Source: Patescibacteria group bacterium
GTDB lineage: Bacteria; Patescibacteriota; Patescibacteriia; PEXW01
Assembly (NCBI GenBank): GCA_041671325.1
Contig: JBAZBR010000001.1
Coordinates: 327,126-391,125, forward strand
Direction of reading: 5' to 3'
Length of the DNA stretch: 64,000 nucleotides
The notes below the pieces were generated by a model. It was not told the origin of the DNA. It was given only the letters and a program-made list of their open reading frames with translations, and made no database searches. The first letter of the stretch is position 1; each line of letters opens with the position of its first letter. Positions 5,914-60,207 of this stretch are shown piece after piece. The translations under genes were made by a program, and so were the position numbers.

Positions 5914-5933
5914 ATTTATTTGAATATCAGGTC

Positions 5934-5962
5934 TTGCAAAAAAGTCAATTTTATTGTACTAT
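5934..5962 (+). promoter_or_regulatory. Putative sigma-70 promoter for holB.
   Basis: TTGCAA, a 17-bp spacer, then TACTAT. The ATG at 5994 is 32 bp downstream. Confidence 0.35.
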
Positions 5963-5993
5963 CATTACAGCATTTTAAGTACTTAACTTAAGT

Positions 5994-32426: not shown

Positions 32427-34844
32427 TTATTTTACTTTTCGGTAAAAAAAGAAATTACCAGTATTTTGGATTAATTTGTAACTTGGATCTTTGGCTAAGT
32501 CCTCAGCTTGTAAATGATTTCTTTGCCATTCCAAAGTACCGGCTTTGGCCATTAAAATGAAAATATAATCAGCTTCCCCTATGCCTTGTGGAAATTGAAA
32601 TAAATATTGCCTATGGGCAAGTTGTGCGCCAACTGTATTGGTTGCAGAAACTTTGGCTTCAAACGGTACATTTTTTATGGCTTCTTTGACAATTGGGGCC
32701 ATAGGCGCTGGCCAATAAACTCGCATATCTTTGGTTTGGGAATAAGGAAGAGGGCTTAAACGGTAAGATTCAATGGCGGTAGTAATTATTAATAATATTA
32801 AGATACACATTTCTAAACTAAATTTAGAATTTTTTTGAATTTTTATTTGCCACCAGGGGCCAATTCTTTTTTTAATGGCGGCAATACCAAAGATTGTTGA
32901 GATGAATATAAATCCGGTTATAGTCGCTTGATAATGGTAATTAAGCAACCTTGGCTCAATCCGGTCATTGAATAAATTTACGGCAAAGTCTGGCCAAGCT
33001 ATGGCTAAAGTTAAAGGACTAGCTACTGGCAAAAATGCTACAGAGCCAAGTAAGCCGGCATAAAGATGGCGGGCTTGGTTGCCTGCCACCATTGATAAAA
33101 CCAACCTTGGATGCGAAAGCAGGTTTTTGGATATTGATTCAGGTTTATTGCCCAAAGTCTGGTATTGGTAGTTATATTTACTGGGTTGCCAATTCCTGGC
33201 CATTGGCATCAACCAAAATAAATTTAGGCTTAAATAAGCAAGCGACAAAATAATTATTGTTATGGCTTTTCGCCATTCTTTCCGTTCGTGCCATAAAATG
33301 AATATGCCGAAGGTTGCCACCATCAAGACCAATTCTTCTTTGCACATTGCCAATAATATTGAAAATAGAATAAATGTTTTCCAGCGTTTTTCAAGATAAG
33401 CAAGCATCATGCCTAATGAAAAAGTTGCTCCAAGGGTTAAAGCATGGAAATCAAACATCAGTGCCCTTTGCAAAGTTGGATAAAATAAATAAGCCAAAGC
33501 TAAAACTGCTGACAGCCATTCATGGCCAAGAATTTTTTTTGCAAGACGGAACACTAGCCAACCACCATAAGCCACAACTAGAACCTGAATGATTAATAGA
33601 ATATAGGGGCTTGAATAAATCCAATACAAAGGGGCAAAGAGCACTAAAATTAGGTCTGCATGATGTATGTACCTTAAAACAACATCTGTCCCATATGGAT
33701 TGGTAAATTGAAAAAACCTGCCCTGGCTGGTGTTCCAGACTACCTGGTCCATATTTCCCAAATCAAAGCGTCCGGTTATAACCTTTGAATGCATTAAGCA
33801 GCCCATAACCGTAAAATAAATTGCAAAAAATAAAATTGCTAAGATTACAACTCCTTTTGGTTTTCGTATAAAATTCCATAACCAAATAACAGGCTTTTTC
33901 AGGTATTTCCAAGCAAAGACTATGACCCAGAAGAATTCGACTAAAGTTAGGCCTAAGCGGGTAAAAGAAGCCACTAGGACCCCTGTAACGCCCAGAGAAG
34001 CCTTTAAAATAGCGGCTACGCTAGCTTCTCTTATTCCAATGCCGCTTGGGGTTATAAAGCTAACGTAGCCTAAAAACCAACCAATCGGCATGGCGGCTAA
34101 TATTAATAAAAACTGGTTTGGATTCAGTTTGAAAAAAGCAAGAGTTAGAAACAAGCCACCGAAGGCGTAAAAAGCCCATCCGACAATTAAGATAGTCAGT
34201 AATTGATAATTTTGAAATATAGAATAAGTAATAATTTCTGCAGGTTTTTTTAGCTTTATAAGTAACCAAGTAATTAGTTTTTTGAATATTTTTGAGAACC
34301 AAAAAATAGCAATAGAACCGATAGCTCCAATTATCACTAAAAGTTTGAACCAATTGGGCAAATCTTTTGCGAATAAACTAAAAATTCCTCCCACAACTAC
34401 TGATGCAGAAAGTAACGAAAGAATTTCCAATAAGGTTGCGTAAAACGATTGGTTTTTTGAAACTCCATATTTTTCACTTTGGCCTATCCGGCCTAAAACA
34501 CTCCAAATATTTCCAGGGACATATCTTGTGAATTCAGAAAGCATGATTATTTCCCCAGACTGTTTAAAACTTATTGAATGTCCAAGATCCCTTAGGATTT
34601 TCTTCCAAGCGTAGATCCTGAAAAAGTAATAAAAACTAAAACCCAAAAAAGCCAAAAATAACCAAAACCAGTTTGGTTTAGTGAAATTTTTTGAAACATC
34701 ATGCCAGTTACCCTGCAAAACTTTTACAAAAAACAAAAGAACAATAATTGATATTGCTAGGGTTAAAGTTCTCCTAATCCTGTTCTTATATTTAAACCAA
34801 AGGTTCATTGCCATTCCATTCGGCCCGAATCGGTAGGTTATCAT
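32427..34844 (-). CDS. Fusion membrane protein: flippase-like (LPG_synthase_TM / UPF0104) N-terminal domain plus DUF2079 GT-C-type glycosyltransferase-like C-terminal domain.
   Basis: N-terminal motifs RYVPGNIWSVLGR and TPSGIGIREASV. C-terminal polytopic region with FDLGNMDQVVWNT. 805 aa, more than 15 predicted TM helices. Confidence 0.7.
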   Translation of the reverse strand: MITYRFGPNGMAMNLWFKYKNRIRRTLTLAISIIVLLFFVKVLQGNWHDVSKNFTKPNWFWLFLAFLGFSFYYFFRIYAWKKILRDLGHSISFKQSGEIIMLSEFTRYVPGNIWSVLGRIGQSEKYGVSKNQSFYATLLEILSLLSASVVVGGIFSLFAKDLPNWFKLLVIIGAIGSIAIFWFSKIFKKLITWLLIKLKKPAEIITYSIFQNYQLLTILIVGWAFYAFGGLFLTLAFFKLNPNQFLLILAAMPIGWFLGYVSFITPSGIGIREASVAAILKASLGVTGVLVASFTRLGLTLVEFFWVIVFAWKYLKKPVIWLWNFIRKPKGVVILAILFFAIYFTVMGCLMHSKVITGRFDLGNMDQVVWNTSQGRFFQFTNPYGTDVVLRYIHHADLILVLFAPLYWIYSSPYILLIIQVLVVAYGGWLVFRLAKKILGHEWLSAVLALAYLFYPTLQRALMFDFHALTLGATFSLGMMLAYLEKRWKTFILFSILLAMCKEELVLMVATFGIFILWHERKEWRKAITIIILSLAYLSLNLFWLMPMARNWQPSKYNYQYQTLGNKPESISKNLLSHPRLVLSMVAGNQARHLYAGLLGSVAFLPVASPLTLAIAWPDFAVNLFNDRIEPRLLNYHYQATITGFIFISTIFGIAAIKKRIGPWWQIKIQKNSKFSLEMCILILLIITTAIESYRLSPLPYSQTKDMRVYWPAPMAPIVKEAIKNVPFEAKVSATNTVGAQLAHRQYLFQFPQGIGEADYIFILMAKAGTLEWQRNHLQAEDLAKDPSYKLIQNTGNFFFYRKVK

Positions 34845-42255: not shown

Positions 42256-43950
42256 TTATTCTTTAGATTTTTGCGGGTCTCTTAAGCCAAACCATTTTGG
42301 GTTTTTAACCCAATTAAATGTGGTTACCAACCTCAAGAGCATCCGGGTAACCGTGATTGCGGAAAATAAACTGACCACGATACCAATCAACAAGGTTATG
42401 GCAAAACCCTTGACAATACTTGAACCAAACCAAACTAAAATAAGCGAAGTGATTATGCTTGAAACATTTGAATCGCGAATTGACAGCCAAGCGCGTTTAA
42501 AGCCTTCTTCAATAGCAATTTCCAACGGCCGGCCGTTGTGCAGCTCTTCTTTGGTTCTTTCAAAAATTAAAATATTGGCGTCTAAAGCAATGCCTATTGA
42601 AAGGATAAACCCGGCTATGCCCGCTAAAGTCAAAGTAACCGGCCAAAGTTTGAAAATCGCCACAACTATTAGGGTGTATAAAACCAGAGCTAAAGAGGCT
42701 AATAATCCAGGTAGCCGATAAAAAACTATCATGAAAATAGCAACTACGATGATACCTAATAAGCCGGCAAAAATACTTCTAGCAATTGAATCATTACCCA
42801 GGGTTGCCCCGACAGTTTGTTGGCTAATCAAGTTAACTGGAACCGGTAAGGCCCCGGCGTTTAGTCTTTTCGCTAAATCTTTCGCCTCTTTTAAAGTGAA
42901 ACTTCCGCTTATGACTGCTTCTCCGCCTGTAATTTCTTGATTAACCGTAGGATTACTGATAATTTGGCCGTCTAAAAAAATTGCCACGTTTTTGCCAATA
43001 TTTCTTTTGGTTATTTCTGCAAAAAGTTTTGTACCTTCGCTATTAAAACTTAAACTGACTTCAGGTTCACCGGTTGACTGGTTAAAAGCCACGCCGGCCC
43101 TTTGTAATTGTTTTCCTGAAAGCCCAGTATCTTTAAAGGCTATTTGGGTTTGGTCATTCGCAATAGTAAATAAAATATGCGCTCCTCTAACTTCTAAAAT
43201 ATCTTTTCCATCTTCCTGAATAGTTTTATCTTCAATTCTTTTAATGATATGGTAGCCGAATTCAGTTTTGACCAATTTTGGGTAAACTTGATCGTTTTTT
43301 AATTCATCAAAAAGAACTTTTTCGAATTCGGCGACAAAAGTGCCTTTTTTGGCAAAACCTAAATCCCCACCCTTTTGTTTTCCTGCTGAATCAGCATTGC
43401 TCGGATCTTGGGAATATTCATTAGCTAAAGCTGAAAAATCAGCATTTTTTACTAAAGCTTTTTTCAAAACTTCTTCTGCCTGTTTTTTAGTTGCCGCCTC
43501 TGCATCTATCTGAGCTTTTTTTTGAGCCTCAGTTTGGGTTTGATTTTGGTCAACTTCCTTAAATTCTAAAATTGGCGTATCGCCAATCATTTTAATTGCC
43601 TGGTCAATGTCTTTAATCCCGGCTAATTCAACAATTATCCGCCAACTATTTCCAGATTTACTGGTTTGAACCACTGGCTCAGAAACCCCAAAAGCGTTAA
43701 CTCGTCTTTCAATGACATCCCTAACGCTTTCCAAGGCTTGGGCTTGGTCACCGCTAACGATATTTTTTGTGTCAGCTTCGTAAATTAAAGATGAACCGCC
43801 TTGCAAGTCTAAGCCGAGCCGAAGGTCAAATTGTTTGCCAAATATTTTAATATTTGGAAGCAAATTTTTTGGTAAAGCAATATAGCTAACTACCAAACCA
43901 AGCACGATTATTAGCGAAAAATTAAGCCAAAGTTTTTTTCTAGAAGTCAT
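42256..43950 (-). CDS. secD: Protein translocase subunit SecD.
   Basis: N-terminal TM helix, large periplasmic domain and a C-terminal six-TM bundle. Paired with secF. Confidence 0.88.
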   Translation of the reverse strand: MTSRKKLWLNFSLIIVLGLVVSYIALPKNLLPNIKIFGKQFDLRLGLDLQGGSSLIYEADTKNIVSGDQAQALESVRDVIERRVNAFGVSEPVVQTSKSGNSWRIIVELAGIKDIDQAIKMIGDTPILEFKEVDQNQTQTEAQKKAQIDAEAATKKQAEEVLKKALVKNADFSALANEYSQDPSNADSAGKQKGGDLGFAKKGTFVAEFEKVLFDELKNDQVYPKLVKTEFGYHIIKRIEDKTIQEDGKDILEVRGAHILFTIANDQTQIAFKDTGLSGKQLQRAGVAFNQSTGEPEVSLSFNSEGTKLFAEITKRNIGKNVAIFLDGQIISNPTVNQEITGGEAVISGSFTLKEAKDLAKRLNAGALPVPVNLISQQTVGATLGNDSIARSIFAGLLGIIVVAIFMIVFYRLPGLLASLALVLYTLIVVAIFKLWPVTLTLAGIAGFILSIGIALDANILIFERTKEELHNGRPLEIAIEEGFKRAWLSIRDSNVSSIITSLILVWFGSSIVKGFAITLLIGIVVSLFSAITVTRMLLRLVTTFNWVKNPKWFGLRDPQKSKE

Positions 43951-44013: not shown

Positions 44014-45411
44014 TTAATTTTGAACTCTGACTGGAGTGCTGATTTCTGCCCATTTAAAAACTTCTTTTGATTCTGCGGGTGACAACCTAATGCAACCGTG
44101 TGAAACTCTAATGCCTAAATGTTTGACACCTTCATAATAAATGCCACCATTTTTTAACTTCCAGTATGGCAAGGAATGGATGCCATATGCGCCATCTGAT
44201 GTAAATGCCATCCAGTTATCCATATATAAACTGTATTTTCTTGAATAAGCAACGTTCATTTTATTTTTTATTGAAAAGTTACCCAAGGGCGTAGGCATTG
44301 ACCATTTACCCGTTGAAACCCTATAGGTTTTTATTAATTTGCCATTTTCATAGCGTTTCAGTTTTTGTTCGGAAATATCAACGACAATCAGCTTTCCAGA
44401 ACCGACGTTTTCATCCATTTGCTCAGAGCCTACGGGAACAACAATTATTTCTTGGTCACTATCTCCATCAACATTTGCGGTAGCCACAGAAAGCCCTTGG
44501 GTATAATTTTTCCCATACGGGAAGAATTTTATTTTACCTTTTTGGCCATTTGGCAAATAACTAATAACTTGGGCGGAAGTTCCTGGCGCATCAGCTAAAA
44601 CTATTTCATTTTTTGAACCCAAGGTGTTTTGATTTGAAATTTTCAAATTATTTGGAAAAATGTTAGAAGTTTTAAAAGTAGAAGTCAAATTACCATCAGC
44701 TTGGAAAACTTTGATTAAGGAATTTTTTTCAATTTTTGTAGTTACTATTTCAAAATTTCCATCATTGTTCAGGTCAAATGCCAAGGGAATCACACCAGTA
44801 CGGACATTTTTTGGATAAGCCCAAAATTCAGAAAGTTTTTTACCATCTTGATTAAAAATGGCCACTCTCGGTCCACCGCCTTTGCCAGGCGCAGTAATAA
44901 TTTCATCAATTTTATCGCCATTAACATCGGCAACGTCCATATATACCCCGCCCTTAAATCCTTTTTCATAAGCTAAAAAAGTTTTAAGTTTTTTACCATT
45001 TAAATCAAATATCCAGATTTCAGGTGTAGTACCTTGGCCAAAGCTTGTAATGATTTCTTTTTTCCCATCATTATTAATATCACCGATTGCAACCCTGATA
45101 GCCGGTTTATTTTTAACATTTTTTAAATTGATGTTTTTTAAAATCCAACCGTCATTTTTCAAAATCCTTATCCCGGGATTTTTTCCGGTTGCGGTCCCGT
45201 AAATTATTTCAACTGCGCCATCATTATTCAAATCCGCCGCGGCAATATTTACACCAGCTGGGATATTTGAGATTTTCCTAATTAGCTTGCCATTAGCTTC
45301 AAAAATTCCAGCTTGAATAGTAGCGGCTTGGCTGTTTTTAATGACAACAAATGACCCCAGTAAAAAAATACTGAATATAAAAAGTCTAATAATTACTAGT
45401 TTTTTATTCAT
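44014..45411 (-). CDS. Secreted L,D-transpeptidase (YkuD domain) with N-terminal FG-GAP/VCBS-like repeats.
   Basis: The C-terminus has the YkuD catalytic motif SHGCIRL. Repeated DxNxDGxxEI motifs. Signal peptide MNKKLVII... The start was moved to the ATG at 45411. Confidence 0.8.
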   Translation of the reverse strand: MNKKLVIIRLFIFSIFLLGSFVVIKNSQAATIQAGIFEANGKLIRKISNIPAGVNIAAADLNNDGAVEIIYGTATGKNPGIRILKNDGWILKNINLKNVKNKPAIRVAIGDINNDGKKEIITSFGQGTTPEIWIFDLNGKKLKTFLAYEKGFKGGVYMDVADVNGDKIDEIITAPGKGGGPRVAIFNQDGKKLSEFWAYPKNVRTGVIPLAFDLNNDGNFEIVTTKIEKNSLIKVFQADGNLTSTFKTSNIFPNNLKISNQNTLGSKNEIVLADAPGTSAQVISYLPNGQKGKIKFFPYGKNYTQGLSVATANVDGDSDQEIIVVPVGSEQMDENVGSGKLIVVDISEQKLKRYENGKLIKTYRVSTGKWSMPTPLGNFSIKNKMNVAYSRKYSLYMDNWMAFTSDGAYGIHSLPYWKLKNGGIYYEGVKHLGIRVSHGCIRLSPAESKEVFKWAEISTPVRVQN

Positions 45412-45442
45412 TTTTATTTTTATTTTAAGCCTTAATATTACT

Positions 45443-45471
45443 ATCTTAACACAAAATTGACATAAAGTCAA
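45443..45471 (-). promoter_or_regulatory. Putative promoter of the L,D-transpeptidase gene.
   Basis: On the minus strand: TTGACT, 17 bp, TAAGAT, about 30 bp upstream of the ATG. Confidence 0.4.
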
Positions 45472-45503
45472 CAAAGTTATGCTGTTTTAATTATATTAAT
45501 TTA

Positions 45504-52076: not shown

Positions 52077-53078
52077 TTGCTTTTACAATCTTTTATCCAG
52101 CAAATCTGGTTGTGGACTTGGGAACATCCCTGGATTTTAGTCTTAGTCGGCATACTGATTGGCTTTTTATTCAGTACTATATTTTTGGCGGCCAGAAGTA
52201 AAGCTATCAATCGTTATATCCGGCTGGTTCGAACTTCAACTATTGAGGAATTCGAATCAAGGATTTTTGGCGTAAGGGTTCTTTGCCGTAAAGTTTTCCC
52301 GAGCACTAGAAACCTAAATGCCTTGAATGTCCCTCCGCCAGCTTTAAACTCAGGGAACGCTTCAAATTCAACCGCCCAAATCTTGATTAGCCAGCCAAAC
52401 GAACAGATATACTATCTGCCGAATAAGGCCGGTATTGCTACTGGACTTGCTTTTCCGCCGTTTGTGAAAATCGTGCACGGCAACCCGCCAATTCTGGAAA
52501 TGACCCAGATTTTGCCGGTTGATATCATTCCAGCTCCAGCAAACGGCGTCTGGATCCCCGGCCGCGTTGGTTCCAATAACATCAGTTTAACTATGGAGGG
52601 ATTGCGGACCAAAAAATTCTGGAAAGGCAGCAGGAATTTCTACATCCTGGATTTTTTTGAAAAAAACGACTGTCTTGGTTTTATCCAACCAATTGAGAAA
52701 AAATCCCAGCCAATTCCGGTCCTGGCTCCTGCCAGTGGCTACATCCTCCAGTTCGGTGCTTTGGAACGAACACCGATTGTTGCTGGCGCCAGCGTAATGC
52801 TTGTTGCCAAGTTGGAAACCCACCGAATTTTGTCTGAGAACGTCGGGACTTTCTTCGATTCAGTAGATAGCAAGCTTTACGCTGAACTTGGTAAAACTGT
52901 TCGAGCCGGGGAAATTCTGGGTGTGATTAAATACCTGGGGAAATTAAATCCCCTGGTGCATAAAGTAATTGCGCCTTGCGACTTGATCTTGTTAAGGTCA
53001 TTTGCCCATGCCCAAAACCCGGAAGATGGCGCTCCAGTTGGTTTCAATAGTAAGTTATTTACTTTTCAGGCTCTTTAG
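52077..53078 (+). CDS. Membrane-anchored hypothetical protein, possibly a degenerate LytM (M23-like, non-catalytic) domain protein. GC-rich.
   Basis: N-terminal TM helix. The C-terminal half has the M23-like pattern PVLAPASGYILQFG ... VRAGEILGVIKYLG without the HxxxD/HxH residues. GC is markedly higher than the flanks. Opposite strand to the flanking dcw genes. Confidence 0.55.
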   Translation: MLLQSFIQQIWLWTWEHPWILVLVGILIGFLFSTIFLAARSKAINRYIRLVRTSTIEEFESRIFGVRVLCRKVFPSTRNLNALNVPPPALNSGNASNSTAQILISQPNEQIYYLPNKAGIATGLAFPPFVKIVHGNPPILEMTQILPVDIIPAPANGVWIPGRVGSNNISLTMEGLRTKKFWKGSRNFYILDFFEKNDCLGFIQPIEKKSQPIPVLAPASGYILQFGALERTPIVAGASVMLVAKLETHRILSENVGTFFDSVDSKLYAELGKTVRAGEILGVIKYLGKLNPLVHKVIAPCDLILLRSFAHAQNPEDGAPVGFNSKLFTFQAL

Positions 53079-53090
53079 AAAATCCCCTGC

Positions 53091-54458
53091 TTAACCGTTG
53101 GGGATTTTATTTTTTGCAAAAGAATAAAAATTGGTTATATCACCCGCCCCAACGGTTAAAATAATATCCTTAGGCTTAAGTAATTTTTTTGTAATCTCAA
53201 CTGCATCAGCAATATTTTTTGCGTAATAAGCGTTACTCCCAGCCAAATCAACAATTTCTTGGCTGGATATGTTTAAATTTTCTTCCCGGCCGGCAACTTG
53301 GTAAATTTCAGGGATGATTTTTAAATCAGCTAATTTTAAAACTTGAACAAATTCACGTAAAAATTGCTGTGTCCGAATTTTTTGATGCGGTTGAAAAACG
53401 CAAATTATCCTACGATTAGGAAAGGCTTGCCGGGTAGCCCCTAAAGTCGCCCTTAATTCTGTGGGATGGTGGGCATAATCATCAATCACAATTGCACCTT
53501 GCCATTCGCCTCTTTTTTCAAACCGACGCCAACAGCCAGAAAAATTTTGGATGGCTTTTTTGGCTATTTCAAATTTAATATTCAAAACTTTTGCTACACC
53601 TAAGGCGGCTAATACATTTAAAATATTATGTTGGCCAAAAAGTGAGGTTTGGATGTGGCCGGAGTACAAGCCATTTACATCAAAGGTCAGGCCTTGTTCT
53701 GAGGATATTATATTAGATGCTGTTAAATCTGCACCTAATAAGGCAAAGGTTATCACTTTGGCCTTAGTCGAATTCACTAATTCATTTGAATTCTTATCTG
53801 ATTTATTTAAAATTAAAAATCCATCTTTGGGCAAGCGTCCGGCAAAAGTTTTAAAAACCTGTAAATATTCGCTTTCATTTTTATAAACATCCACATGATC
53901 AAAATCGATATTCAAAATTGCGGCTATGTTGGGCTTATAATCTAAGAAAGCCCTTCTGTATTCATCAGCCTCGACCAAAAATTCCTTGCCTTGGCCAATC
54001 CTTTCATTGGTTCCGTTTAAAATCCTCAAACGCGTACCAACAATAATAGTTGGGTCTTTTCTAGCTTCAATCAAGATTTGGGCTAATAAACCGGTGGTTG
54101 TGGATTTGCCATGTGTACCAGCTATGGCAATGCCGTTTTTGTTCTGCATTAATTCATTAATTGCTTGGGGATATGAAATACAAGGGATATTGCGTTTTTT
54201 GGCGGAAATCAATTCAATATTATTTTCAGGAATTGCGTTGCTATAAATAACTAAATCGCAGCCTTGTCGGAGATTTCCTGCTTTATGTTGTCCAATTTTT
54301 ATATTAGCGCCATGATCTATTAACCATCGCGAAGTCAATTGGATTGATAAATCTGAACCCGTGACTTGCTTATTATTTTCCAAAGCCCATTTGGCAATGG
54401 CCGAAATGCCAATGCCAGATATGCCGATAAAATGTATGTGTTTAGCGGTTAGTAACAT
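53091..54458 (-). CDS. murC: UDP-N-acetylmuramate--L-alanine ligase MurC.
   Basis: HFIGISGIGISAIA and GTHGKSTTT P-loop. Confidence 0.9.
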   Translation of the reverse strand: MLLTAKHIHFIGISGIGISAIAKWALENNKQVTGSDLSIQLTSRWLIDHGANIKIGQHKAGNLRQGCDLVIYSNAIPENNIELISAKKRNIPCISYPQAINELMQNKNGIAIAGTHGKSTTTGLLAQILIEARKDPTIIVGTRLRILNGTNERIGQGKEFLVEADEYRRAFLDYKPNIAAILNIDFDHVDVYKNESEYLQVFKTFAGRLPKDGFLILNKSDKNSNELVNSTKAKVITFALLGADLTASNIISSEQGLTFDVNGLYSGHIQTSLFGQHNILNVLAALGVAKVLNIKFEIAKKAIQNFSGCWRRFEKRGEWQGAIVIDDYAHHPTELRATLGATRQAFPNRRIICVFQPHQKIRTQQFLREFVQVLKLADLKIIPEIYQVAGREENLNISSQEIVDLAGSNAYYAKNIADAVEITKKLLKPKDIILTVGAGDITNFYSFAKNKIPNG

Positions 54459-55509
54459 TGTTCGTTTTAAGGATTAATTCAGCAATTTTATCGGCCCCAT
54501 CAGTTTGCCAGATATTTGCGATATTTCGGCTCAAAATTTCTAATTTTTCTGGGTTTAAGATATTTTCAGCAATTATTTTAGCAAATATTTCAGGCTCCAG
54601 CTTATCCTGGGAAATGACCAAGCCGCCGCAAGCGTGCAAATATTCAGCATTTTTTTCTTGCTGGGTGTTTGGCAAAGGAACTATCAGGGCTGGTTTTTTT
54701 AAAGCTACCAATTCAGCCAAGGCATTGCTTCCCGCTCGTGAAACAATAAAATTAGCCGCTGCATAAAGATCTGGCAATTCATTGTTTGTAAAAGATATAC
54801 TGTGGTAATTTTGTCGATTTTCAGTTGAAACACTTTTGCCTACTCCGGTTATGTGCAAAATTTGAATTTCAGCAGGTAAAAATTTTATACAAGCTACAAA
54901 TTTGTGATTTAAACTTAAAGCACCCGAGCTTCCGCCAATCACTAGCAGGACTGGTTTTTGAGGATTTAAATTATACTTTCTATAAGTATTTTCAGCCCTG
55001 CCAAATAATAATTCTTTCCTGATAGCAAAACCTAAAGTGTCTGATTCGCCTGGAATATTTTTTGCGATTAATCCGGCTGTGGCAATTCTTTTTACGGCAA
55101 TTTTTGAAATGTATTTATTCGCCATGCCAAGTTCTGCGTCTTGTTGGTACATCAAGACTTTCAGGTTCAGCTTTTTAGCCGCCCAGGCAACCGGTACTGC
55201 TACAAAACTTCCTGCTGTTAATATCCAATCCGGTTTCATTATTTTTAACTTTTGATAGACAAAAAAACCTGCATAAATAATCTTAAAAAAATCCATTATA
55301 TTCAAAAACGAAAAATACCTTCGATATTTTCCAGAAGGTATGGGGATCAATTCAAAACCATATTCTTCCACGAATTGTTTTTCAAAAGGATTTTTGCTTC
55401 CCCAAAAAACAATATCAATTGCAGTGTCTTTAATTTTTATAGCAGAAGCAATTGCTAATAGTGGGTTAACCGATCCAAGCGTACCGCCCCCAACCAATAG
55501 AATTTTCAT
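54442..55509 (-). CDS. murG: Undecaprenyl-PP-MurNAc-pentapeptide GlcNAc transferase MurG.
   Basis: MKILLVGGGTLGSVNPLLAIA and GT28 C-terminal domain. Confidence 0.9.
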   Translation of the reverse strand: MKILLVGGGTLGSVNPLLAIASAIKIKDTAIDIVFWGSKNPFEKQFVEEYGFELIPIPSGKYRRYFSFLNIMDFFKIIYAGFFVYQKLKIMKPDWILTAGSFVAVPVAWAAKKLNLKVLMYQQDAELGMANKYISKIAVKRIATAGLIAKNIPGESDTLGFAIRKELLFGRAENTYRKYNLNPQKPVLLVIGGSSGALSLNHKFVACIKFLPAEIQILHITGVGKSVSTENRQNYHSISFTNNELPDLYAAANFIVSRAGSNALAELVALKKPALIVPLPNTQQEKNAEYLHACGGLVISQDKLEPEIFAKIIAENILNPEKLEILSRNIANIWQTDGADKIAELILKTNNVTNR

Positions 55510-56603
55510 GATCGTATTTGCTTAGTGACATTCAATAATACTCCAATGGAGCCAAGTGAAACAATTAAAGCACTGCCGCCATTGGAGATAAAGGGCAAAG
55601 GGATTCCGGTCAACGGCAAAATGCCTGTTAAAGCGCCGATATTAACAAATGCTTGAGCTGTAATCCAAATAACCACTCCCATAATAATTAACCTTCCTCC
55701 TGGATCCGAAATTTTTTTTGCTAGTTTTCTGCCCCTGATATAAATAGCAGTGTATAAAAAAACAATGCCCAAAACGACAATAAAACCCAATTCTTCAGCA
55801 GCTACTGCAAATATTGAATCCCCCGCTGCTTCGGGCAAGTAATTGAATTTTTGGATTGATTTTCCTAAGCCTCTGCCAAACCAACCGCCTGAACCAATAG
55901 CTAAAAGCGAACGATTTATATGATAGCTAGAATCTTGGGAGTCTTGCTGTGGATTCAGAAAAGTAGTCAGTCGTTCGGCTCGATATGGCTCAAATTTTAT
56001 TAATAGCAAGATAACTAAAATTATGCCAACCAAAATCCAAAGCAGATGTTTTACGGGTGCGCCAGCTATAAAATACATTGCCGTGGCAATTATAAAAATT
56101 ATAAGGGTTGTACCCAAATCTCTTTGTAACATAAGCATCAAAGCGCAGCCAGCAATCAGTATTGAGAAAGGTACAAGGGTTTTTTTATAATCACGCCAAT
56201 TATTTTGGATTTTTGGCAGCCAGGCGGCTAAATAAATTATCATGCCGATTTTCAAAACTTCTGAGGGTTGGAAAAAAAAGCCCCCGATACTTATCCAGCG
56301 CTTTGCACCCAGGAGTTCTTTCCCAATTCCAGGTACGAAAGGCAAAAATAAAATTAAAATTGATAGTATCAATAAAATGTTTGACCATTTAATCCAATGA
56401 CGATAATCAATCATTTGGGCAAAATACAAAATAGCAAAACCAATTATTAAAGGCAGTATCTGCTTAATTAACATGCTATTAGGGTCTCCAAGGGTTCGAA
56501 ATGATTCAGCCGTACTGGCAGAAGAAAAAATTATCACTCCAATTACGCAAAGAGTGATAATTATGGCTAAAAAAATTGAATCTGGCCTTCGGTATGAAAT
56601 CAT
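55506..56603 (-). CDS. ftsW: SEDS family peptidoglycan polymerase (FtsW/RodA).
   Basis: 365 aa with 10 TM helices, in the dcw position between murD and murG. Confidence 0.85.
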   Translation of the reverse strand: MISYRRPDSIFLAIIITLCVIGVIIFSSASTAESFRTLGDPNSMLIKQILPLIIGFAILYFAQMIDYRHWIKWSNILLILSILILFLPFVPGIGKELLGAKRWISIGGFFFQPSEVLKIGMIIYLAAWLPKIQNNWRDYKKTLVPFSILIAGCALMLMLQRDLGTTLIIFIIATAMYFIAGAPVKHLLWILVGIILVILLLIKFEPYRAERLTTFLNPQQDSQDSSYHINRSLLAIGSGGWFGRGLGKSIQKFNYLPEAAGDSIFAVAAEELGFIVVLGIVFLYTAIYIRGRKLAKKISDPGGRLIIMGVVIWITAQAFVNIGALTGILPLTGIPLPFISNGGSALIVSLGSIGVLLNVTKQIRS

Positions 56604-58714
56604 TTGAGGTTTTTTACGGCTTGGACAAATTTTTCACCCCGATCAAATTCATTCTTGAATAGGCCAAAACTGGCCGCTCCAGGATTTAAAATTATAGAAT
56701 CTTTTGATTTTGAAATTTCCCAAGCTTTGTTCACTGCTTCAACCATTGAACTCGCAATATATTTTGGTGCTTTTACTCTGCTTTGCATTTTATTCGTTGC
56801 TGAACCGGGTAAGAAGATTACATACCCAGCCTTCTTGTTTATTTCCTTAACATATTCAGCAAATTCTAAATTTTTATCGCTGCCACCGCAAATTACAATC
56901 GGTTTAGTTTTTATGCTTCTTAAAGCCATGACGGCCGCTATTGGATTTGTAGCTGTAGTATTATTGATAAAATTTCGTCCTTTAAAAAATTTTACCAACT
57001 CGAACCTCTCATTAACCCCTTTAAAGTTTTTTAATTTATTTTTAATAGTTTTCAAGGGTAAACCCAGTAAATAACCGGCTAAAGCTACGTTAATTGCGTT
57101 TCTCAAAGAAGCTTGGTCTTGCAACTTCATTTGTTTTATTGAAATTATCTTGATTTTTTTATTGTTAATCTTTAGGACAATATCTGATTTTTCAATCCAG
57201 GCCGAAGAATTGGGCAGATATGAAAAACTGGTCCAGTAAATTTTAGGCTTTATTGGCAATTTATTAAATTTTTTCCAAAAACTGTCTAATGGCAATATGG
57301 CGATGTCGTTTGCTGATTGACCTTCAAAAATACGGGCTTTAATTTTTGAATATTTAAACAGGCTTTTATGCCGATTTAAATGATCTGGGTAAAGATTCGT
57401 AACAATCGTCAATTTCGCATTTAAAGACAAAGACAAGTCTTCCAGCTGAAAAGATGATAATTCAAAAATCACAGGTGTTTTTCCATCAAAAGCCTTGGCT
57501 TGTAATAATGGTGAAATTTTCAAATTACCAGCAAGGACGGGATTTGTTTTTTCTTTTATCAAATAGGCAAGCCAAGTTGCAGTAGTGGTTTTGCCTTTAG
57601 TACCGGTTATTGCGTATATCGGATTGGCGCTATTCGCTTTAAAAATTGAGATATCGTTAGTCATTGGAATCTTGGCTTTTTTTAATTTAACAATAATTTT
57701 ATTGTTTGGATTAATGCCAGGATTTTTGACAATTAAATCTGCTTTGCTTAAAGCTTTAAAATCAATTTTACCGAAATAGTATTTTATAGGCAGCCCTCTT
57801 AGCTTTTTTAATGTTTCTTTAAAAAATATCCTTGGCTTATCATCAAAAATACTGACTTTAGCATTTGCTTTGACAGCAAACCGTACGCTTGACTCACCTC
57901 CTCCTTGAATGCCTAAACCATATATGGCTATCTTTTTTCCAGCCAAAAAAGATTCCAAAGGCTTTTTCGCTATGACAGTCAAAGTATTTTTATGCAATTT
58001 AAAACCATCTCTTCTGGCTGAGGGCAGCTGTTTACTTTCAAAAGTGCATAAAGGTGAAATTTCGATATTATTTCTTAATACCCCACAAGATAGTAATTGT
58101 TTAATCAAGCCGGCTTTCAAATTAATAAAGTGTTTACTTCCAACTTTTATTGATTTAATCTTTAATTTTTTTTCAAACAAGCGTATTCGATTTAAGTTGT
58201 TGACAAAGTAACATTTTTGACAAATTCCAGGCCCTAGCCAAATTCGCAAATTTGAAACTGCTACGCCTTTAGCTTTTAAGATTTTTATTGCTTTTGGCAC
58301 AATTTCTTTAATCATGCCTTTCCAACCTGTGTGTAGCGCGCCTAACCAACCAGTTTTTGGATCATAAAGTAACACAGGGATACAATCGGCTGTTAAGACC
58401 CCTAATGCTATGTTTGCTTTCTGAGTTAAAAGCCCGTCAGTTTTGGGAAGATAATTGCGTTGATGAAAAGCACCAGCTCCCAGATTTTTTTCGTCAATAA
58501 TTCTAATATTATTGCCATGGACTTGCTGACCCAGAACTAGTTGATTTAAATTTAATTTCAATTCGCCTAAAAATTTCTTCCTGGAATTGATCACCTTTTC
58601 ACCATTTTCACCTACAAAACTTAATGGCTGGTAACTTTCCGATGCCGTAGCCTGGATAATTTCTGGGAATTTTTTAAGTTTTTTTGACTGGAAAAATACC
58701 ATATTTAAAAGCAT
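56600..58714 (-). CDS. murD: Fusion protein: N-terminal PgeF/YfiH (DUF152 laccase-domain, peptidoglycan editing factor) plus C-terminal UDP-MurNAc-L-Ala--D-Glu ligase MurD.
   Basis: The N-terminal ~250 aa has the YfiH pattern (QVHGNNI ... LTADCIPVLLYD ... ALHTGWKG). The C-terminal ~450 aa has MurD motifs (IAIYGLGIQG, ITGTKGKTTT). Confidence 0.8.
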   Translation of the reverse strand: MLLNMVFFQSKKLKKFPEIIQATASESYQPLSFVGENGEKVINSRKKFLGELKLNLNQLVLGQQVHGNNIRIIDEKNLGAGAFHQRNYLPKTDGLLTQKANIALGVLTADCIPVLLYDPKTGWLGALHTGWKGMIKEIVPKAIKILKAKGVAVSNLRIWLGPGICQKCYFVNNLNRIRLFEKKLKIKSIKVGSKHFINLKAGLIKQLLSCGVLRNNIEISPLCTFESKQLPSARRDGFKLHKNTLTVIAKKPLESFLAGKKIAIYGLGIQGGGESSVRFAVKANAKVSIFDDKPRIFFKETLKKLRGLPIKYYFGKIDFKALSKADLIVKNPGINPNNKIIVKLKKAKIPMTNDISIFKANSANPIYAITGTKGKTTTATWLAYLIKEKTNPVLAGNLKISPLLQAKAFDGKTPVIFELSSFQLEDLSLSLNAKLTIVTNLYPDHLNRHKSLFKYSKIKARIFEGQSANDIAILPLDSFWKKFNKLPIKPKIYWTSFSYLPNSSAWIEKSDIVLKINNKKIKIISIKQMKLQDQASLRNAINVALAGYLLGLPLKTIKNKLKNFKGVNERFELVKFFKGRNFINNTTATNPIAAVMALRSIKTKPIVICGGSDKNLEFAEYVKEINKKAGYVIFLPGSATNKMQSRVKAPKYIASSMVEAVNKAWEISKSKDSIILNPGAASFGLFKNEFDRGEKFVQAVKNLK

Positions 58715-58747: not shown

Positions 58748-59833
58748 CTAGGTTTTATCTATTAGAAATACTGATACGCCAACCACCGCGCAAACACCGG
58801 AAATTACCCAAAAACGCATGACAATCTTTGATTCAGGCCAGCCAATTGCTTCCAAATGATGGTGAATGGGCGCAGAAATAAAAACTTTTTTCTTAAAAAC
58901 TTTCTTAGAGATAATTTGGATGATTACGCTTAAAGCTTCTAAGACAAAAAGCAAGCCAATAACCGGTAAAAGCAAGGCTTGATTCGTGAGCATTGCCACA
59001 ATGCCTAAAGTCACCCCTAATGACATGGCGCCAGTATCACCCATGAAAAATCTGGCAGGTGGAATATTAAACCAAAGAAATGCCAACAAGGCCCCAACTA
59101 TCACCCCGCAAAGCGTGGCTAATTCAAACCTTTGCTGGGCAAAAGCAATTGCGCCATAAGCCACAAAAGCAGATAGTAGTGTTCCTCCTGATAAACCGTC
59201 TAAGCCATCGATTTCATTTACTGAAAAAGCGGTTGCCACCATAATAAAAATAAATAGCGGAATATACCACCAGCTGATTTCAAAATTCCCCAAAAAAGGC
59301 ACGTGAATTTGGCTAAAGCCTAATTTAAAGTAAAACCAAAAAGCCCCGACAATCGCAATGGCTGTATAAATAAGAAGTTTATGTCTGACTTGAAAACCAC
59401 CGCCTTTGGGTCCCCAACCTTTTACATTAAAAAAATCATCAACCAGACCGACCAAAGCCGCAGCTCCCAGCGCGGCTAAAGGCAGCCAGGTTTGCTGCCG
59501 AGTCAAAAAATTTAAATCATGCCAAAAACCACCGGATATTAATTGCCGGATTATAAAAAATAAAATCGCAAAAACACAAACCGTAAACCAGACAATAACC
59601 CCACCCATGGTTGGTGTGCCAGACTTTTTTTCATGGAGTTTGGCAAATACTGGGGCAGATTCCGAACTCCTAATTTTTTTACCTAACTTATATTTATATA
59701 AAATTCCAGCCCAAACTGGAGTCAGCGCTATGGCTGTTAAAAAAGCCAGAGTTGAAAGAAAAAATATTCGAATTACCGGCAACTGGTCAATCATGATAAT
59801 ATTTGCTGAAATTGTAAAAGCCAAACTAGCCAA
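58748..59833 (-). CDS. mraY: Phospho-N-acetylmuramoyl-pentapeptide transferase MraY.
   Basis: Polytopic, with GTPTMGG and the DD-containing loop (VGLVDDF). Confidence 0.9.
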   Translation of the reverse strand: MASLAFTISANIIMIDQLPVIRIFFLSTLAFLTAIALTPVWAGILYKYKLGKKIRSSESAPVFAKLHEKKSGTPTMGGVIVWFTVCVFAILFFIIRQLISGGFWHDLNFLTRQQTWLPLAALGAAALVGLVDDFFNVKGWGPKGGGFQVRHKLLIYTAIAIVGAFWFYFKLGFSQIHVPFLGNFEISWWYIPLFIFIMVATAFSVNEIDGLDGLSGGTLLSAFVAYGAIAFAQQRFELATLCGVIVGALLAFLWFNIPPARFFMGDTGAMSLGVTLGIVAMLTNQALLLPVIGLLFVLEALSVIIQIISKKVFKKKVFISAPIHHHLEAIGWPESKIVMRFWVISGVCAVVGVSVFLIDKT

Positions 59834-60207
59834 AGTATCCCCAAACTAATAATAAGATTAGCATAGTGTACAAGGATCAAGCCCTTAATTGTTGAATTAC
59901 GGAACCAGGGTAAAAAAACTAATGTGTTTATCAAAAAGAAAAAGAAAGCAATTAATGGCAAAAGCCAAATAACCCACCAATAACCGATCATATCAATACC
60001 AAAGGGAATGTTATAATGGATTACGACATTAGAAGTTCCTGGAGGGAAATATTTAATTGCAATTATCCCGCTAATTACCATGCTTACTAAACACACACTT
60101 AAAGAAAAAATTTCCCATTTCTTGAAGCCGGAAAAAAGCCAATTTTTTAGTTTTGAAATTCCCAAACTTTGGCGAAGTATTCTTGTTGGTTTTCTGCTAA
60201 TAATCAT
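59791..60207 (-). CDS. Small hydrophobic membrane protein. Start ambiguous (60207 or internal Met at 60081).
   Basis: Three to four predicted TM helices. It overlaps the mraY start and the divergent GT39-like gene. Confidence 0.4.
   Translation of the reverse strand: MIISRKPTRILRQSLGISKLKNWLFSGFKKWEIFSLSVCLVSMVISGIIAIKYFPPGTSNVVIHYNIPFGIDMIGYWWVIWLLPLIAFFFFLINTLVFLPWFRNSTIKGLILVHYANLIISLGILWLVWLLQFQQILS

What the first reader, a model, noticed from the sequence alone, without database searches (positions are those of the whole stretch)
56600..58714. PgeF(YfiH)-MurD fusion inside an otherwise canonical mraY-murD-ftsW-murG-murC run
The 704-aa ORF has a complete DUF152/YfiH-type domain at its N-terminus. 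It carries the conserved QVHG, ADC and HxGWKG motifs.

In frame with it is a full MurD ligase with its P-loop and Rossmann-like N-domain.

PgeF edits mis-charged UDP-MurNAc-peptide precursors. It is usually a stand-alone gene, and dcw synteny places it after ftsZ in many bacteria. A covalent PgeF-MurD enzyme would couple precursor proof-reading to D-Glu addition. A missed frameshift or stop is also possible, but none is visible: the junction region ...KKPLESFLAGKKIAIYGLG... reads through cleanly.
Basis: partly seen in the sequence, partly recalled or inferred. Interest (0 to 1): 0.5.

Follow-up and report, generated by a model that had tools for sequence, protein, structure and literature searches.

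The report
Cell-wall proofreading enzyme fused to MurD
In one group of tiny uncultured bacteria (Patescibacteria), the enzyme that removes a wrongly added first amino acid from cell-wall precursors (PgeF) is permanently joined to MurD, the next enzyme in the pathway, giving a natural system for testing whether proofreading is physically tied to synthesis.

Summary
Window 56600-58714 (-) is one 704-aa ORF. Residues ~5-250 are a complete PgeF/YfiH domain (PF02578, E 3e-48). Residues 261-704 are a complete MurD (TIGR01087, 323 bits against a cut-off of 212). It sits in a mraY-X-ftsW-murG-murC operon.

It is not an artefact. The identical protein was assembled from three independent datasets. About 20 orthologous fusions (42-57% identity, genomic GC 37-61%) keep the same architecture and synteny.

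Both halves are equally conserved (49% and 51% mean pairwise identity), and all catalytic residues are kept. The junction length is fixed at 33-34 residues. AlphaFold2 predicts one compact body (pLDDT 96, pTM 0.89).

The origin is clear. In other Patescibacteria, pgeF lies immediately upstream of murD with a 1-2 nt gap, so losing the stop codon fuses them. One subclade later lost the PgeF domain by an in-frame deletion.

The fusion is rare: about 6 clusters at 50% identity among more than 13,000 MurD-like representatives. Databases annotate it only as MurD. It is absent from the published survey of Mur chimeras.

Functional coupling of editing to D-Glu addition is plausible but untested. This is a new variant of a known kind, of moderate interest.

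The parts
56600..58714 (-). Whole 704-aa PgeF~MurD fusion ORF. The stop codon is at 56600-56602 and overlaps the ftsW start (ATGA).
   Evidence: The identical protein P0001 was found in three independent assemblies.
57965..58714 (-). PgeF/YfiH/YlmD-type editing-amidase domain, aa 1-250. The last beta-strand is aa 244-250 (NTLTVIA).
   Evidence: PF02578 E 2.9e-48. TIGR00726 141.8 bits. PDB sequence hits 6dzd, 7fbg, 6t0y/1t8h. The AF2 model matches these with target-normalised TM 0.82-0.85.
58514..58525 (-). QVHG motif, aa 64-67. Gln64 corresponds to E. coli YfiH Gln69 (the L-Ser specificity determinant) and His66 to His71.
   Evidence: Alignment with E. coli YfiH. Q64 and H66 are invariant in 18/18 fusions. 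Residue roles from PMC8844914.
58382..58390 (-). ADC beta-turn, aa 109-111. The catalytic nucleophile Cys111 corresponds to E. coli Cys107; the oxyanion-hole residues are Ala109 and Asp110.
   Evidence: C111 is kept in 18/18 fusions. Role from PMC8844914 and PMC12280929.
58316..58333 (-). HTGWKG motif, aa 128-133. His128 corresponds to the catalytic His124. Trp131 and Lys132 correspond to the UDP-diphosphate contacts Trp127 and Arg128.
   Evidence: H128 and W131 are invariant; position 132 is K or R.
57935..57964 (-). Junction, aa 251-260 (KPLESFLAGK). The native PgeF C-terminus abuts the native MurD N-terminus. There is no flexible linker and no conserved internal start codon.
   Evidence: pLDDT is 86 for this block, with no disorder. 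Junction identity is 55%, at least as high as the domains. The SxRR-to-GxG spacing is fixed at 33-34 aa in the 22 fusions that resemble the window protein; the divergent P0209 has 40.
56603..57934 (-). [quoted passage not shown] Rossmann-like N-domain 260-351, ATP-binding central domain 369-538, C-domain 570-676.
   Evidence: TIGR01087 323 bits against cut-off 212. Pfam. Target-normalised TM up to 0.90 to E. coli MurD 4uag. Catalytic residues mapped to E. coli MurD.
57584..57604 (-). MurD P-loop GTKGKTT, aa 371-377 (E. coli GSNGKST, Lys115).
   Evidence: G371, T372, K373, G374, K375 and T377 are invariant.
58748..59833 (-). mraY, the upstream gene of the operon.
   Evidence: PF00953 and MraY_sig1.
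55506..56603 (-). ftsW, the downstream gene, with a translationally coupled 4-nt overlap.
   Evidence: PF01098 E 5e-101.
53091..55509 (-). murG (54442-55509) and murC (53091-54458). MurC is the enzyme whose mis-ligation products PgeF edits.

Best explanation
The ORF encodes one bifunctional polypeptide.

Its N-terminal domain is a PgeF/YfiH-type Cys-His-Asp amidase. It hydrolyses UDP-MurNAc-L-Ser and UDP-MurNAc-Gly, the by-products of the error-prone MurC ligase, back to UDP-MurNAc.

Its C-terminal part is MurD. It uses ATP to add D-Glu to the correct product, UDP-MurNAc-L-Ala.

The two activities compete for the same pool of UDP-MurNAc-monopeptides. Once D-Glu is attached, PgeF barely acts on the precursor, so the MurD step closes the editing window. 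Fusing the two enzymes fixes them at 1:1 stoichiometry and in rigid proximity. This resembles a cis-editing domain on an aminoacyl-tRNA synthetase.

The fusion arose in an ancestor of a Kerfeldbacteria-related clade of Patescibacteria. Adjacent, co-transcribed pgeF and murD genes lost the pgeF stop codon. One subclade later lost the PgeF domain by an in-frame deletion.

Shown here: the architecture, its conservation, intact catalytic residues, the origin and the secondary loss. Inferred: both activities, and any kinetic benefit of the fusion.
For: Architecture and family membership.

The fusion is real. The identical protein comes from three independent assemblies. About 19 full-length orthologues at 42-57% identity come from NCBI, JGI, ENA and Logan. 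A further fusion at about 30% identity is in L012. The exhaustive HMM search finds 6 fusion clusters at 50% identity.

Both halves are under equal constraint. Mean pairwise identity is 49% for PgeF and 51% for MurD.

PgeF residues, in E. coli numbering, among 18 fusions: Q69, H71, C107, H124, W127 and R228 are kept in 18/18, and D89 in 17/18. MurD residues (P-loop K, N138, E157, H183, carbamylated K198, K348 equivalents) are invariant.

The coupling looks rigid. Junction spacing is 33-34 aa in the 22 fusions that resemble the window protein (the divergent P0209 has 40). The junction is 55% identical, and only 2 of the 18 aligned fusions have a Met there, at different positions. AF2 gives pLDDT 96.2, pTM 0.89, and pLDDT 86 for the linker.

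Origin: stand-alone pgeF lies directly upstream of murD in L007 (1-nt gap), L013 (2-nt gap) and L008.

Secondary deletion: P0020 and P0021 lack the domain. They nest inside the fusion clade with 100/100 bootstrap and keep the PgeF N-terminal 'MLLNMAVF..KK' peptide and the matching 5' DNA.

Kinetic logic, from PMC8844914 Table 1: YfiH specific activities are 274,084 on UDP-MurNAc-Ser, 23,451 on UDP-MurNAc-Ala, 89 on the Ser-Glu dipeptide and 27 on the Ala-Glu dipeptide (nmol/min/mg). PMC12280929 shows that bacterial PgeF homologues, including Gram-positive YlmD, prefer the monopeptide forms.
Against: No enzymology was done, and no coordinates or PAE were available, so the geometry of the two active sites is unknown.

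In E. coli, pulldowns found no PgeF-MurD or PgeF-MurC interaction (PMC12280929).

The equivalent of Arg235, the substrate-carboxylate clamp of E. coli YfiH, aligns to Asn243 in the fusions (17/18 Asn). R235A retains about 11% activity.

The TIGR00726 score only just clears its cut-off.

The PgeF domain was lost again in one subclade, so fusion in cis is not indispensable.

Many other Mur chimeras join non-sequential enzymes, so fusion alone does not prove channeling (PMC10214165).

Only 64 kb of the ~618-kb genome could be checked for a second pgeF or murD; none was found in the window.
Confidence: 0.6

Rival explanations
1. The fusion is neutral. Both domains work as ordinary PgeF and MurD, but joining them is only a tolerated accident of stop-codon loss between two abutting genes. 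It brings no kinetic or regulatory advantage beyond the co-expression the operon already gave.
For: The ancestral genes are separated by only 1-2 nt, so fusion is mutationally easy. One subclade lost the PgeF domain again. The fusion is rare, about 6 clusters at 50% identity. E. coli PgeF and MurD do not interact detectably. Mur chimeras often link non-sequential enzymes.
Against: The fusion has persisted across a divergence down to ~30% identity and genomic GC from 37% to 61%. Its junction length is invariant and its junction sequence is well conserved. AF2 predicts a single compact body rather than beads on a string. An unrelated hydrolase domain is fused at the same MurD N-terminus in another Kerfeldbacteria-labelled lineage.
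Confidence: 0.25
2. The N-terminal domain has a function other than Ser/Gly editing. It might bind UDP-MurNAc ligands as a sensor or regulator of MurD. It might act on a different UDP-MurNAc-peptide. It might carry the weak purine-nucleoside-phosphorylase or oxidase activities once ascribed to DUF152 proteins.
For: The Arg235 equivalent is Asn. TIGR00726 is only marginally passed. The closest stand-alone Patescibacteria PgeFs even lack the Gln69 equivalent, so the family drifts in this phylum. PNP activity has been reported for YfiH, YlmD and FAMIN (PMC6978800, listed). Vertebrate homologues with a conserved active site lack editing activity.
Against: The full catalytic triad, the Gln69 specificity determinant and the UDP-contact residues are invariant in the fusions. 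The closest solved relatives are Gram-positive YlmD/PgeF proteins, and PMC12280929 shows such homologues (B. subtilis and G. stearothermophilus YlmD) edit PG precursors. PNP activity was weak and physiologically irrelevant in bacteria. The gene context is purely PG synthesis.
Confidence: 0.1
3. The fusion is an artefact or only apparent. Either a sequencing or assembly error removed a stop or frameshift, or the ORF is continuous but MurD is made separately from an internal start.
For: Two in-frame TTG codons lie in the junction, so internal initiation cannot be formally excluded. Patescibacteria MAGs can carry errors.
Against: The identical 704-aa product comes from three independent runs or assemblies. 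About 20 diverged orthologues have the same uninterrupted frame. Only 2 of the 18 aligned fusions have a Met in the junction, at different positions, so there is no conserved start codon, and no Shine-Dalgarno-like sequence is visible in the window's junction. The only apparently truncated homologue (P0022) is interrupted by scaffold Ns, not by a mutation.
Confidence: 0.03

Closest known systems
Stand-alone PgeF / YfiH (E. coli) and YlmD (Bacillus, Geobacillus): peptidoglycan editing factor, PF02578/DUF152, TIGR00726
   Same: Same fold, with target-normalised TM 0.82-0.85 to 6dzd, 7fbg and 1t8h/6t1b. The same Cys-His-Asp triad, the Gln69 specificity residue and the UDP-contact residues are present. 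The domain has the same length as the free enzymes.
   Different: Here the domain is covalently joined through its C-terminal strand to MurD. The Arg235 carboxylate clamp is replaced by Asn in the alignment. Sequence identity to any stand-alone PgeF is at most 38%. In Firmicutes the gene lies downstream of ftsZ (my own knowledge), and in E. coli it lies next to rluD. In Patescibacteria it lies between mraY and murD.
MurD, UDP-N-acetylmuramoyl-L-alanine:D-glutamate ligase (TIGR01087; E. coli P14900; PDB 1uag-4uag)
   Same: Three-domain Mur ligase with the P-loop and the equivalents of N138, E157, H183, carbamyl-Lys198 and K348. The AF2 model has target-normalised TM 0.90 to 4uag. It occupies the same operon position between mraY and ftsW.
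   Different: It carries a 250-aa N-terminal enzymatic domain and has no start codon of its own.
Natural Mur chimeras: MurE-MurF, MurC-Ddl, MurC-MurB, MurG-MurC, MurD-FtsW, MraY-MurG (survey and MurE-MurF structure, PMC10214165)
   Same: Fusion of neighbouring dcw-cluster genes into one polypeptide. It is of the linker-less type, with the termini directly juxtaposed, like the B. pertussis MurE-MurF.
   Different: All catalogued chimeras join two biosynthetic enzymes. This one joins a ligase to the hydrolase that undoes the error of the previous ligase. It is not in that survey, which excluded unidentified species and does not mention YfiH/PgeF.
Cis-editing domains of aminoacyl-tRNA synthetases (AlaRS editing domain versus free-standing AlaXp). 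The analogy is drawn by the authors of PMC12280929 for PgeF in trans.
   Same: The logic is the same. An Ala-adding enzyme discriminates poorly against Ser and Gly, and a hydrolytic editor corrects it. Both fused and free-standing forms of the editor exist.
   Different: The proteins are unrelated. Here the editor is fused to the next enzyme in the pathway (MurD), not to the error-making enzyme (MurC). The similarity is in how it works, not in family membership.
Alpha/beta-hydrolase~MurD fusion found here (P0203 in GCA_016214565.1, 'Candidatus Kerfeldbacteria'; P0339)
   Same: A hydrolase domain of about 255 aa is fused without a linker to the MurD N-terminus. The synteny is the same: T2SSE, PMT, mraY, X~murD, ftsW, murG, murC, murB, secA.
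   Different: The fold is non-homologous, a Ser-Asp-His alpha/beta hydrolase weakly resembling proline iminopeptidases. Its MurD lies in a different Patescibacteria MurD subclade. Its function is unknown.

Membership tests
PgeF / YfiH / YlmD (PF02578, TIGR00726) | Match to the curated family profile above its cut-off | tested here: met
   PF02578 scores 164.8 bits against a cut-off of 22.9. TIGR00726 (equivalog) scores 141.8 against 141.15, which passes only marginally.
PgeF / YfiH / YlmD (PF02578, TIGR00726) | Catalytic Cys107-His124-Asp89 triad and the ADC beta-turn (oxyanion hole) | tested here: met
   C111, H128 and D93, with A109-D110-C111. Among the fusions these are kept in 18/18, 18/18 and 17/18. 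Definition from PMC8844914.
PgeF / YfiH / YlmD (PF02578, TIGR00726) | Gln69 specificity determinant and His71 (QVHG) | tested here: met
   Q64 and H66 are invariant in 18/18 fusions. Some stand-alone Patescibacteria PgeFs (P0121, P0125, P0133) lack the Gln.
PgeF / YfiH / YlmD (PF02578, TIGR00726) | UDP-MurNAc groove residues Trp127, Arg128 and Arg228 | tested here: met
   W131 (18/18), K/R132 and R234 (18/18). Tyr227 is replaced by Ala233.
PgeF / YfiH / YlmD (PF02578, TIGR00726) | Arg235 salt bridge to the carboxylate of the first amino acid | tested here: inconclusive
   It aligns to Asn243, which is Asn in 17/18 fusions. His241 (14/18) and Arg250 (17/18) are nearby and might substitute. No coordinates were available to check. 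R235A keeps about 11% activity.
PgeF / YfiH / YlmD (PF02578, TIGR00726) | DUF152 fold (two central beta-sheets flanked by helices) | tested here: met
   The AF2 model (pLDDT 96) matches 6dzd, 7fbg and 1t8h/6t1b with target-normalised TM 0.82-0.85 and rmsd 2.5-3.2 A.
PgeF / YfiH / YlmD (PF02578, TIGR00726) | Amidase activity on UDP-MurNAc-L-Ser/Gly with a preference over L-Ala | not testable with these tools
   This needs enzymology or complementation of E. coli delta-pgeF.
MurD (TIGR01087) | Equivalog profile above its cut-off, with the three Mur-ligase domains | tested here: met
   323.4 bits against 211.95, covering 440/441 model positions. Pfam MurD-like_N, Mur_ligase_M and Mur_ligase_C.
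MurD (TIGR01087) | ATP P-loop, Mg/substrate residues (N138, E157, H183), carbamylated Lys198, and D-Glu site (K348, C-terminal SxxxF region) | tested here: met
   GTKGKTT at 371-377, N397, E418, H445, K459, K614 and PGAASFGLF at 678-686. All are invariant in the fusions and align to the E. coli residues.
MurD (TIGR01087) | Genomic position between mraY and ftsW in the dcw cluster | tested here: met
   The same holds in L001, L004, L090 and L091.
Catalogued Mur chimeras (PMC10214165) | Fusion of two PG-biosynthetic dcw genes (MurE-MurF, MurC-Ddl, MurC-MurB, MurG-MurC, MurD-FtsW, MraY-MurG) | tested here: not met
   The partner is PgeF, a hydrolytic editor that is not in the catalogue. The paper does not mention YfiH, laccase or oxidase.

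The most novel reading that the evidence does not exclude
This is a true cis-editing Mur ligase. The PgeF groove and the MurD UDP-MurNAc-L-Ala site would be held in a fixed geometry. Each UDP-MurNAc-monopeptide released by MurC would then be partitioned on one protein, with Ala forms elongated and Ser/Gly forms hydrolysed. That would be physically integrated proofreading in non-ribosomal peptide-stem synthesis.

The unrelated alpha/beta-hydrolase fused at the same MurD N-terminus in another Kerfeldbacteria-labelled lineage would be a convergent, non-homologous editing domain.
Probability: 0.2. Interest if true: 0.7.

Novelty: new variant of a known kind. Interest (0 to 1): 0.5.

Why it matters
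PgeF was established only recently (2017-2025) as the proofreader that keeps L-Ala at position 1 of the peptidoglycan stem. How it gets access to mis-ligated precursors before MurD, MurE and MurF carry them forward is still open. The authors of the 2025 PNAS study looked for a PgeF-MurC or PgeF-MurD complex in E. coli and found none.

A natural, conserved, linker-less PgeF~MurD polypeptide is independent 'Rosetta-stone' evidence that the editing step belongs functionally at the MurC/MurD boundary. It also offers a ready-made construct for testing whether proximity or stoichiometry improves fidelity.

The finding extends the catalogue of Mur chimeras to a ligase-editor pair. It shows that current annotation of these proteins ('MurD' only) hides the second activity. 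In these reduced Patescibacteria genomes that could make pgeF look absent.

Tried and rejected
(1) Assembly or frameshift artefact: rejected.

(2) P0022 (559 aa) looked like a fusion with a decayed PgeF N-terminus. Its locus L090 shows a run of scaffold Ns inside an otherwise intact frame, so it is not a pseudogene.

(3) The second homologue search, using the N-domain alone, did not list the fusions themselves for reasons I cannot see. I used it only to find the nearest stand-alone PgeFs.

It yielded three fusion loci (L010, L011, L012) but no exhaustive taxonomy. L010 is labelled 'Gammaproteobacteria', probably a mis-binned MAG; I did not check this.

(5) The afdb50 fold library was unavailable, so I could not see whether UniProt/AFDB already holds such fusions under another name.

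(6) I considered whether the alpha/beta-hydrolase~MurD fusion replaced PgeF within the same lineage. The MurD tree places it in a different subclade, next to unfused MurDs, and its closest unfused relative has mraY directly followed by murD. It is therefore an independent acquisition, not a swap.

(7) A Biopython bootstrap timed out. I redid it with numpy distances and NJ. These are distance trees only, not maximum likelihood.

(8) I found no second pgeF or murD in the window. The rest of the genome could not be scanned.


Full report
**1. The observation**

Window 56600-58714 on the minus strand is a single 704-codon ORF.

Pfam finds a nearly full-length PF02578 (Cu-oxidase_4/DUF152/YfiH) match at aa 34-237 (E 2.9e-48). 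It also finds the three MurD domains: MurD-like_N at 260-351, Mur_ligase_M at 369-538 and Mur_ligase_C at 570-676.

NCBIfam's equivalog models agree. murD TIGR01087 scores 323 bits against a cut-off of 212 and covers 440/441 model positions. PgeF TIGR00726 scores 141.8 bits against 141.15, which only just passes.

The DNA across the junction reads through cleanly.

The flanking genes on the same strand are mraY, ftsW, murG and murC. There is a 33-nt gap upstream and an ATGA overlap with ftsW.

**2. Not an artefact**

The identical 704-aa protein is encoded on contigs from three separate datasets: ERZ27249449 (a 618-kb contig), SRR6484324 and SRR18595301.

A search of 5.8 billion proteins returned about 19 full-length orthologues. 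They are 691-707 aa long, 42-57% identical, and come from NCBI, JGI, ENA and Logan. All carry PF02578 plus the Mur-ligase domains.

A scan of GTDB species genomes added a much more diverged fusion, about 30% identical in the N-domain, in a high-GC Candidatus Kerfeldbacteria MAG (L012).

An exhaustive HMM search of 1.84 billion 50%-identity representatives found six fusion clusters (P0008, P0002, P0193, P0194, P0195, P0209). This is out of more than 13,000 MurD-like representatives.

One homologue (P0022) looked truncated, but it is interrupted only by scaffold Ns.

Loci with the fusion range from 37% to 61% GC and keep the same synteny.

**3. Both halves are functional by every sequence and structure criterion available**

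*Conservation.* Among 18 full-length fusions, mean pairwise identity is 49% in the PgeF part and 51% in the MurD part.

*PgeF residues.* I aligned the N-domain to E. coli YfiH, fetched from MG1655, and took residue roles from the YfiH-substrate structures (PMC8844914).
- Kept in 18/18 fusions: Gln69 (the L-Ser specificity determinant), His71, Cys107, His124, Trp127 and Arg228.
- Kept in 17/18: Asp89.
- Arg128 is Lys or Arg.
- The one defining residue not matched is Arg235, which clamps the substrate carboxylate. It aligns to Asn243.
- His241 or Arg250 might substitute for Arg235. I could not check this without coordinates.
- R235A keeps about 11% of wild-type activity.

*MurD residues.* The P-loop and the equivalents of N138, E157, H183, carbamylated K198 and K348 are invariant.

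*Structure.* AlphaFold2 gives pLDDT 96.2 and pTM 0.89.
- The model's MurD part superposes on E. coli MurD 4uag with target-normalised TM 0.90.
- Its N-domain superposes on Bacillus and Geobacillus YfiH/YlmD/PgeF structures with TM 0.82-0.85.
- No PDB chain covers both parts.

**4. The junction**

The last beta-strand of PgeF (aa 244-250) is followed by ten residues and then the first strand of MurD (261-265).
- That block has pLDDT 86 and is not disordered.
- The spacing from the PgeF SxRR motif to the MurD GxG loop is 33-34 residues in the 22 fusions that resemble the window protein, including those only ~30% identical. It is 40 in the outlier P0209.
- The junction is 55% identical on average, at least as conserved as the domains.
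- Only 2 of the 18 aligned fusions have a Met in the junction, at different positions, so there is no conserved internal start.

This pattern fits a rigid two-enzyme body, not beads on a string. The caveat is that no PAE or coordinates were available.

**5. Origin and later history**

The nearest stand-alone PgeFs are at most 38% identical and come from Patescibacteria and Berkelbacteria. They sit immediately upstream of murD, between mraY and murD.
- L007 has a 1-nt gap.
- L013 has a 2-nt gap.
- L008 has a 105-nt gap.

Loss of the pgeF stop codon therefore suffices to make the fusion.

In NJ trees of the MurD moiety, the core fusions form a clade with 200/200 and 100/100 bootstrap support.

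The closest 'unfused' MurDs are P0020 and P0021, the latter from Candidatus Kerfeldbacteria GCA_002774575.1.
- They nest inside that clade, next to the window protein.
- They share its synteny.
- They still begin with the PgeF N-terminal peptide, MLLNMAVF..KK, on matching 5' DNA.

They are therefore secondary in-frame deletions of about 218 codons.

P0194 and P0195 are deep or separate fusions. P0209 has a longer linker and a more typical bacterial MurD, and may be an independent fusion.

**6. Mechanism**

Published work shows that bacterial PgeF is a cytoplasmic amidase. It removes L-Ser or Gly that MurC has mis-ligated onto UDP-MurNAc (PMC12280929, PMC8844914).

Its specific activity falls about 1,000-3,000-fold once D-Glu has been added. 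The values are 274,084 on UDP-MurNAc-Ser and 23,451 on UDP-MurNAc-Ala, against 89 and 27 nmol/min/mg on the corresponding dipeptides.

PgeF and MurD therefore compete for the same monopeptide pool, and MurD closes the editing window.

My best explanation is a bifunctional enzyme in which the two competing activities are held at 1:1 and close together. It is functionally analogous to a cis-editing domain.
- Shown: the architecture, the conservation and the evolutionary route.
- Inferred: the two activities and any fidelity gain.

The main rival is a neutral fusion of abutting genes. It is supported by:
- the ease of the event;
- the later loss of the domain in one subclade;
- the negative E. 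coli pulldowns;
- the existence of Mur chimeras between non-sequential enzymes.

**7. Comparison with what is known**

The two domains are members of known families; the membership table gives the details. The architecture is the new element.
- The systematic survey of natural Mur chimeras lists MurE-MurF, MurC-Ddl, MurC-MurB, MurG-MurC, MurD-FtsW and MraY-MurG. It excluded unidentified species and does not mention YfiH/PgeF (PMC10214165).
- The PgeF papers do not mention fusions.
- Three full-text searches found no report.
- Public records name these proteins only 'UDP-N-acetylmuramoyl-L-alanine--D-glutamate ligase'.

I rate this as a new variant of a known kind.

**8. Side finding**

The exhaustive search also surfaced an alpha/beta-hydrolase~MurD fusion: P0203 from 'Candidatus Kerfeldbacteria' GCA_016214565.1, and P0339, which is 61% identical.
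- The GxSxG, Asp and His triad is conserved.
- The synteny is the same, with an added NUDIX gene between mraY and the fusion.
- Its MurD lies in a different Patescibacteria MurD subclade, beside unfused MurDs. It is an independent acquisition.

It is suggestive that a second, unrelated hydrolase has been attached at the same point of MurD. I did not establish its function.

**9. Verdict**

The finding is real and well supported. The evolutionary story is clear. The mechanistic proposal is plausible and testable but unproven. Interest is moderate (0.5).

Noticed in passing
L095:5001-7142 (GCA_016214565.1, 'Candidatus Kerfeldbacteria'); P0203 and P0339: A 713-aa alpha/beta-hydrolase~MurD fusion. 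The hydrolase part matches Hydrolase_4/S33 and weakly resembles proline iminopeptidases, and its GxSxG, Asp and His residues are conserved between two clusters that are 61% identical. It sits in the same synteny as the window's PgeF~MurD. Its MurD is in a different subclade, so it is an independent N-terminal hydrolase acquisition. It might be an analogous editing domain.
   Followed up: partly
L095:4529-4936 and L096:4460-4927: A small NUDIX hydrolase gene lies between mraY and the hydrolase~murD fusion. UDP-MurNAc derivatives are nucleoside-diphosphate-X compounds, so a role in precursor clean-up is conceivable. No specific family was matched.
   Followed up: partly
L001:6001-7422 (P0021, Candidatus Kerfeldbacteria GCA_002774575.1) and P0020: These MurDs have lost the PgeF domain through an in-frame deletion of about 218 codons. 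They retain the first ~13 PgeF codons and a possible 'SRRN' remnant of the SARRD motif. Whether these genomes keep a pgeF elsewhere is unknown.
   Followed up: partly
window 42256-43950 (-): A SecD protein with a parvulin-type PPIase domain (PF13616/PF00639, aa 143-240). The domain is inserted between the SecD_1st and P1-head subdomains, giving a translocon-chaperone chimera.
   Followed up: no
window 52077-53078 (+): A 333-aa ORF with no Pfam match, on the opposite strand between murC and murB. A similar-sized gene occupies the same place in L001, L004 (faint BSH_YhbJ hit) and L090. It is a conserved unknown embedded in the PG-synthesis cluster.
   Followed up: no
window 59791-60207 (-): A 138-aa hydrophobic ORF with no Pfam match, directly upstream of and overlapping mraY. 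Small ORFs of 66-137 aa occupy the same position in related loci (L001, L004, L090, L095, L097).
   Followed up: no
window 32427-34844 (-) and 44014-45474 (-): Two further multidomain envelope proteins. One is an LPG_synthase_TM + DUF2079 fusion (805 aa). The other is an FG-GAP-repeat + YkuD L,D-transpeptidase (486 aa).
   Followed up: no
P0121, P0125, P0133 (stand-alone Patescibacteria/Berkelbacteria PgeF; L007:6001-6747): The stand-alone Patescibacteria PgeFs closest to the fusion lack the Gln69 specificity determinant, having Ser, Ala or Val there. They also lack the Arg235 equivalent. The fused PgeF domains keep Gln invariantly. Substrate preference in this phylum may differ between the free and fused forms.
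   Followed up: partly
L036, L066, L068, L069 (around 5000-6700): Stop-to-stop open frames of 535-555 aa span the pgeF match and about 300 upstream codons. The loci are from Alphaproteobacteria, Anoxymicrobiaceae and Merdibacter MAGs. They may be other N-terminal fusions or overlaps of pgeF with an upstream gene, as with rluD-yfiH in E. coli.
   Followed up: no
P0279, P0247, P0224, P0309: Other unusual MurD architectures turned up in the 50% representative library: GrpB~MurD (600 aa), MurD~lactonase beta-propeller (855 aa), and two multi-Mur-ligase proteins (887 and 1330 aa).
   Followed up: no
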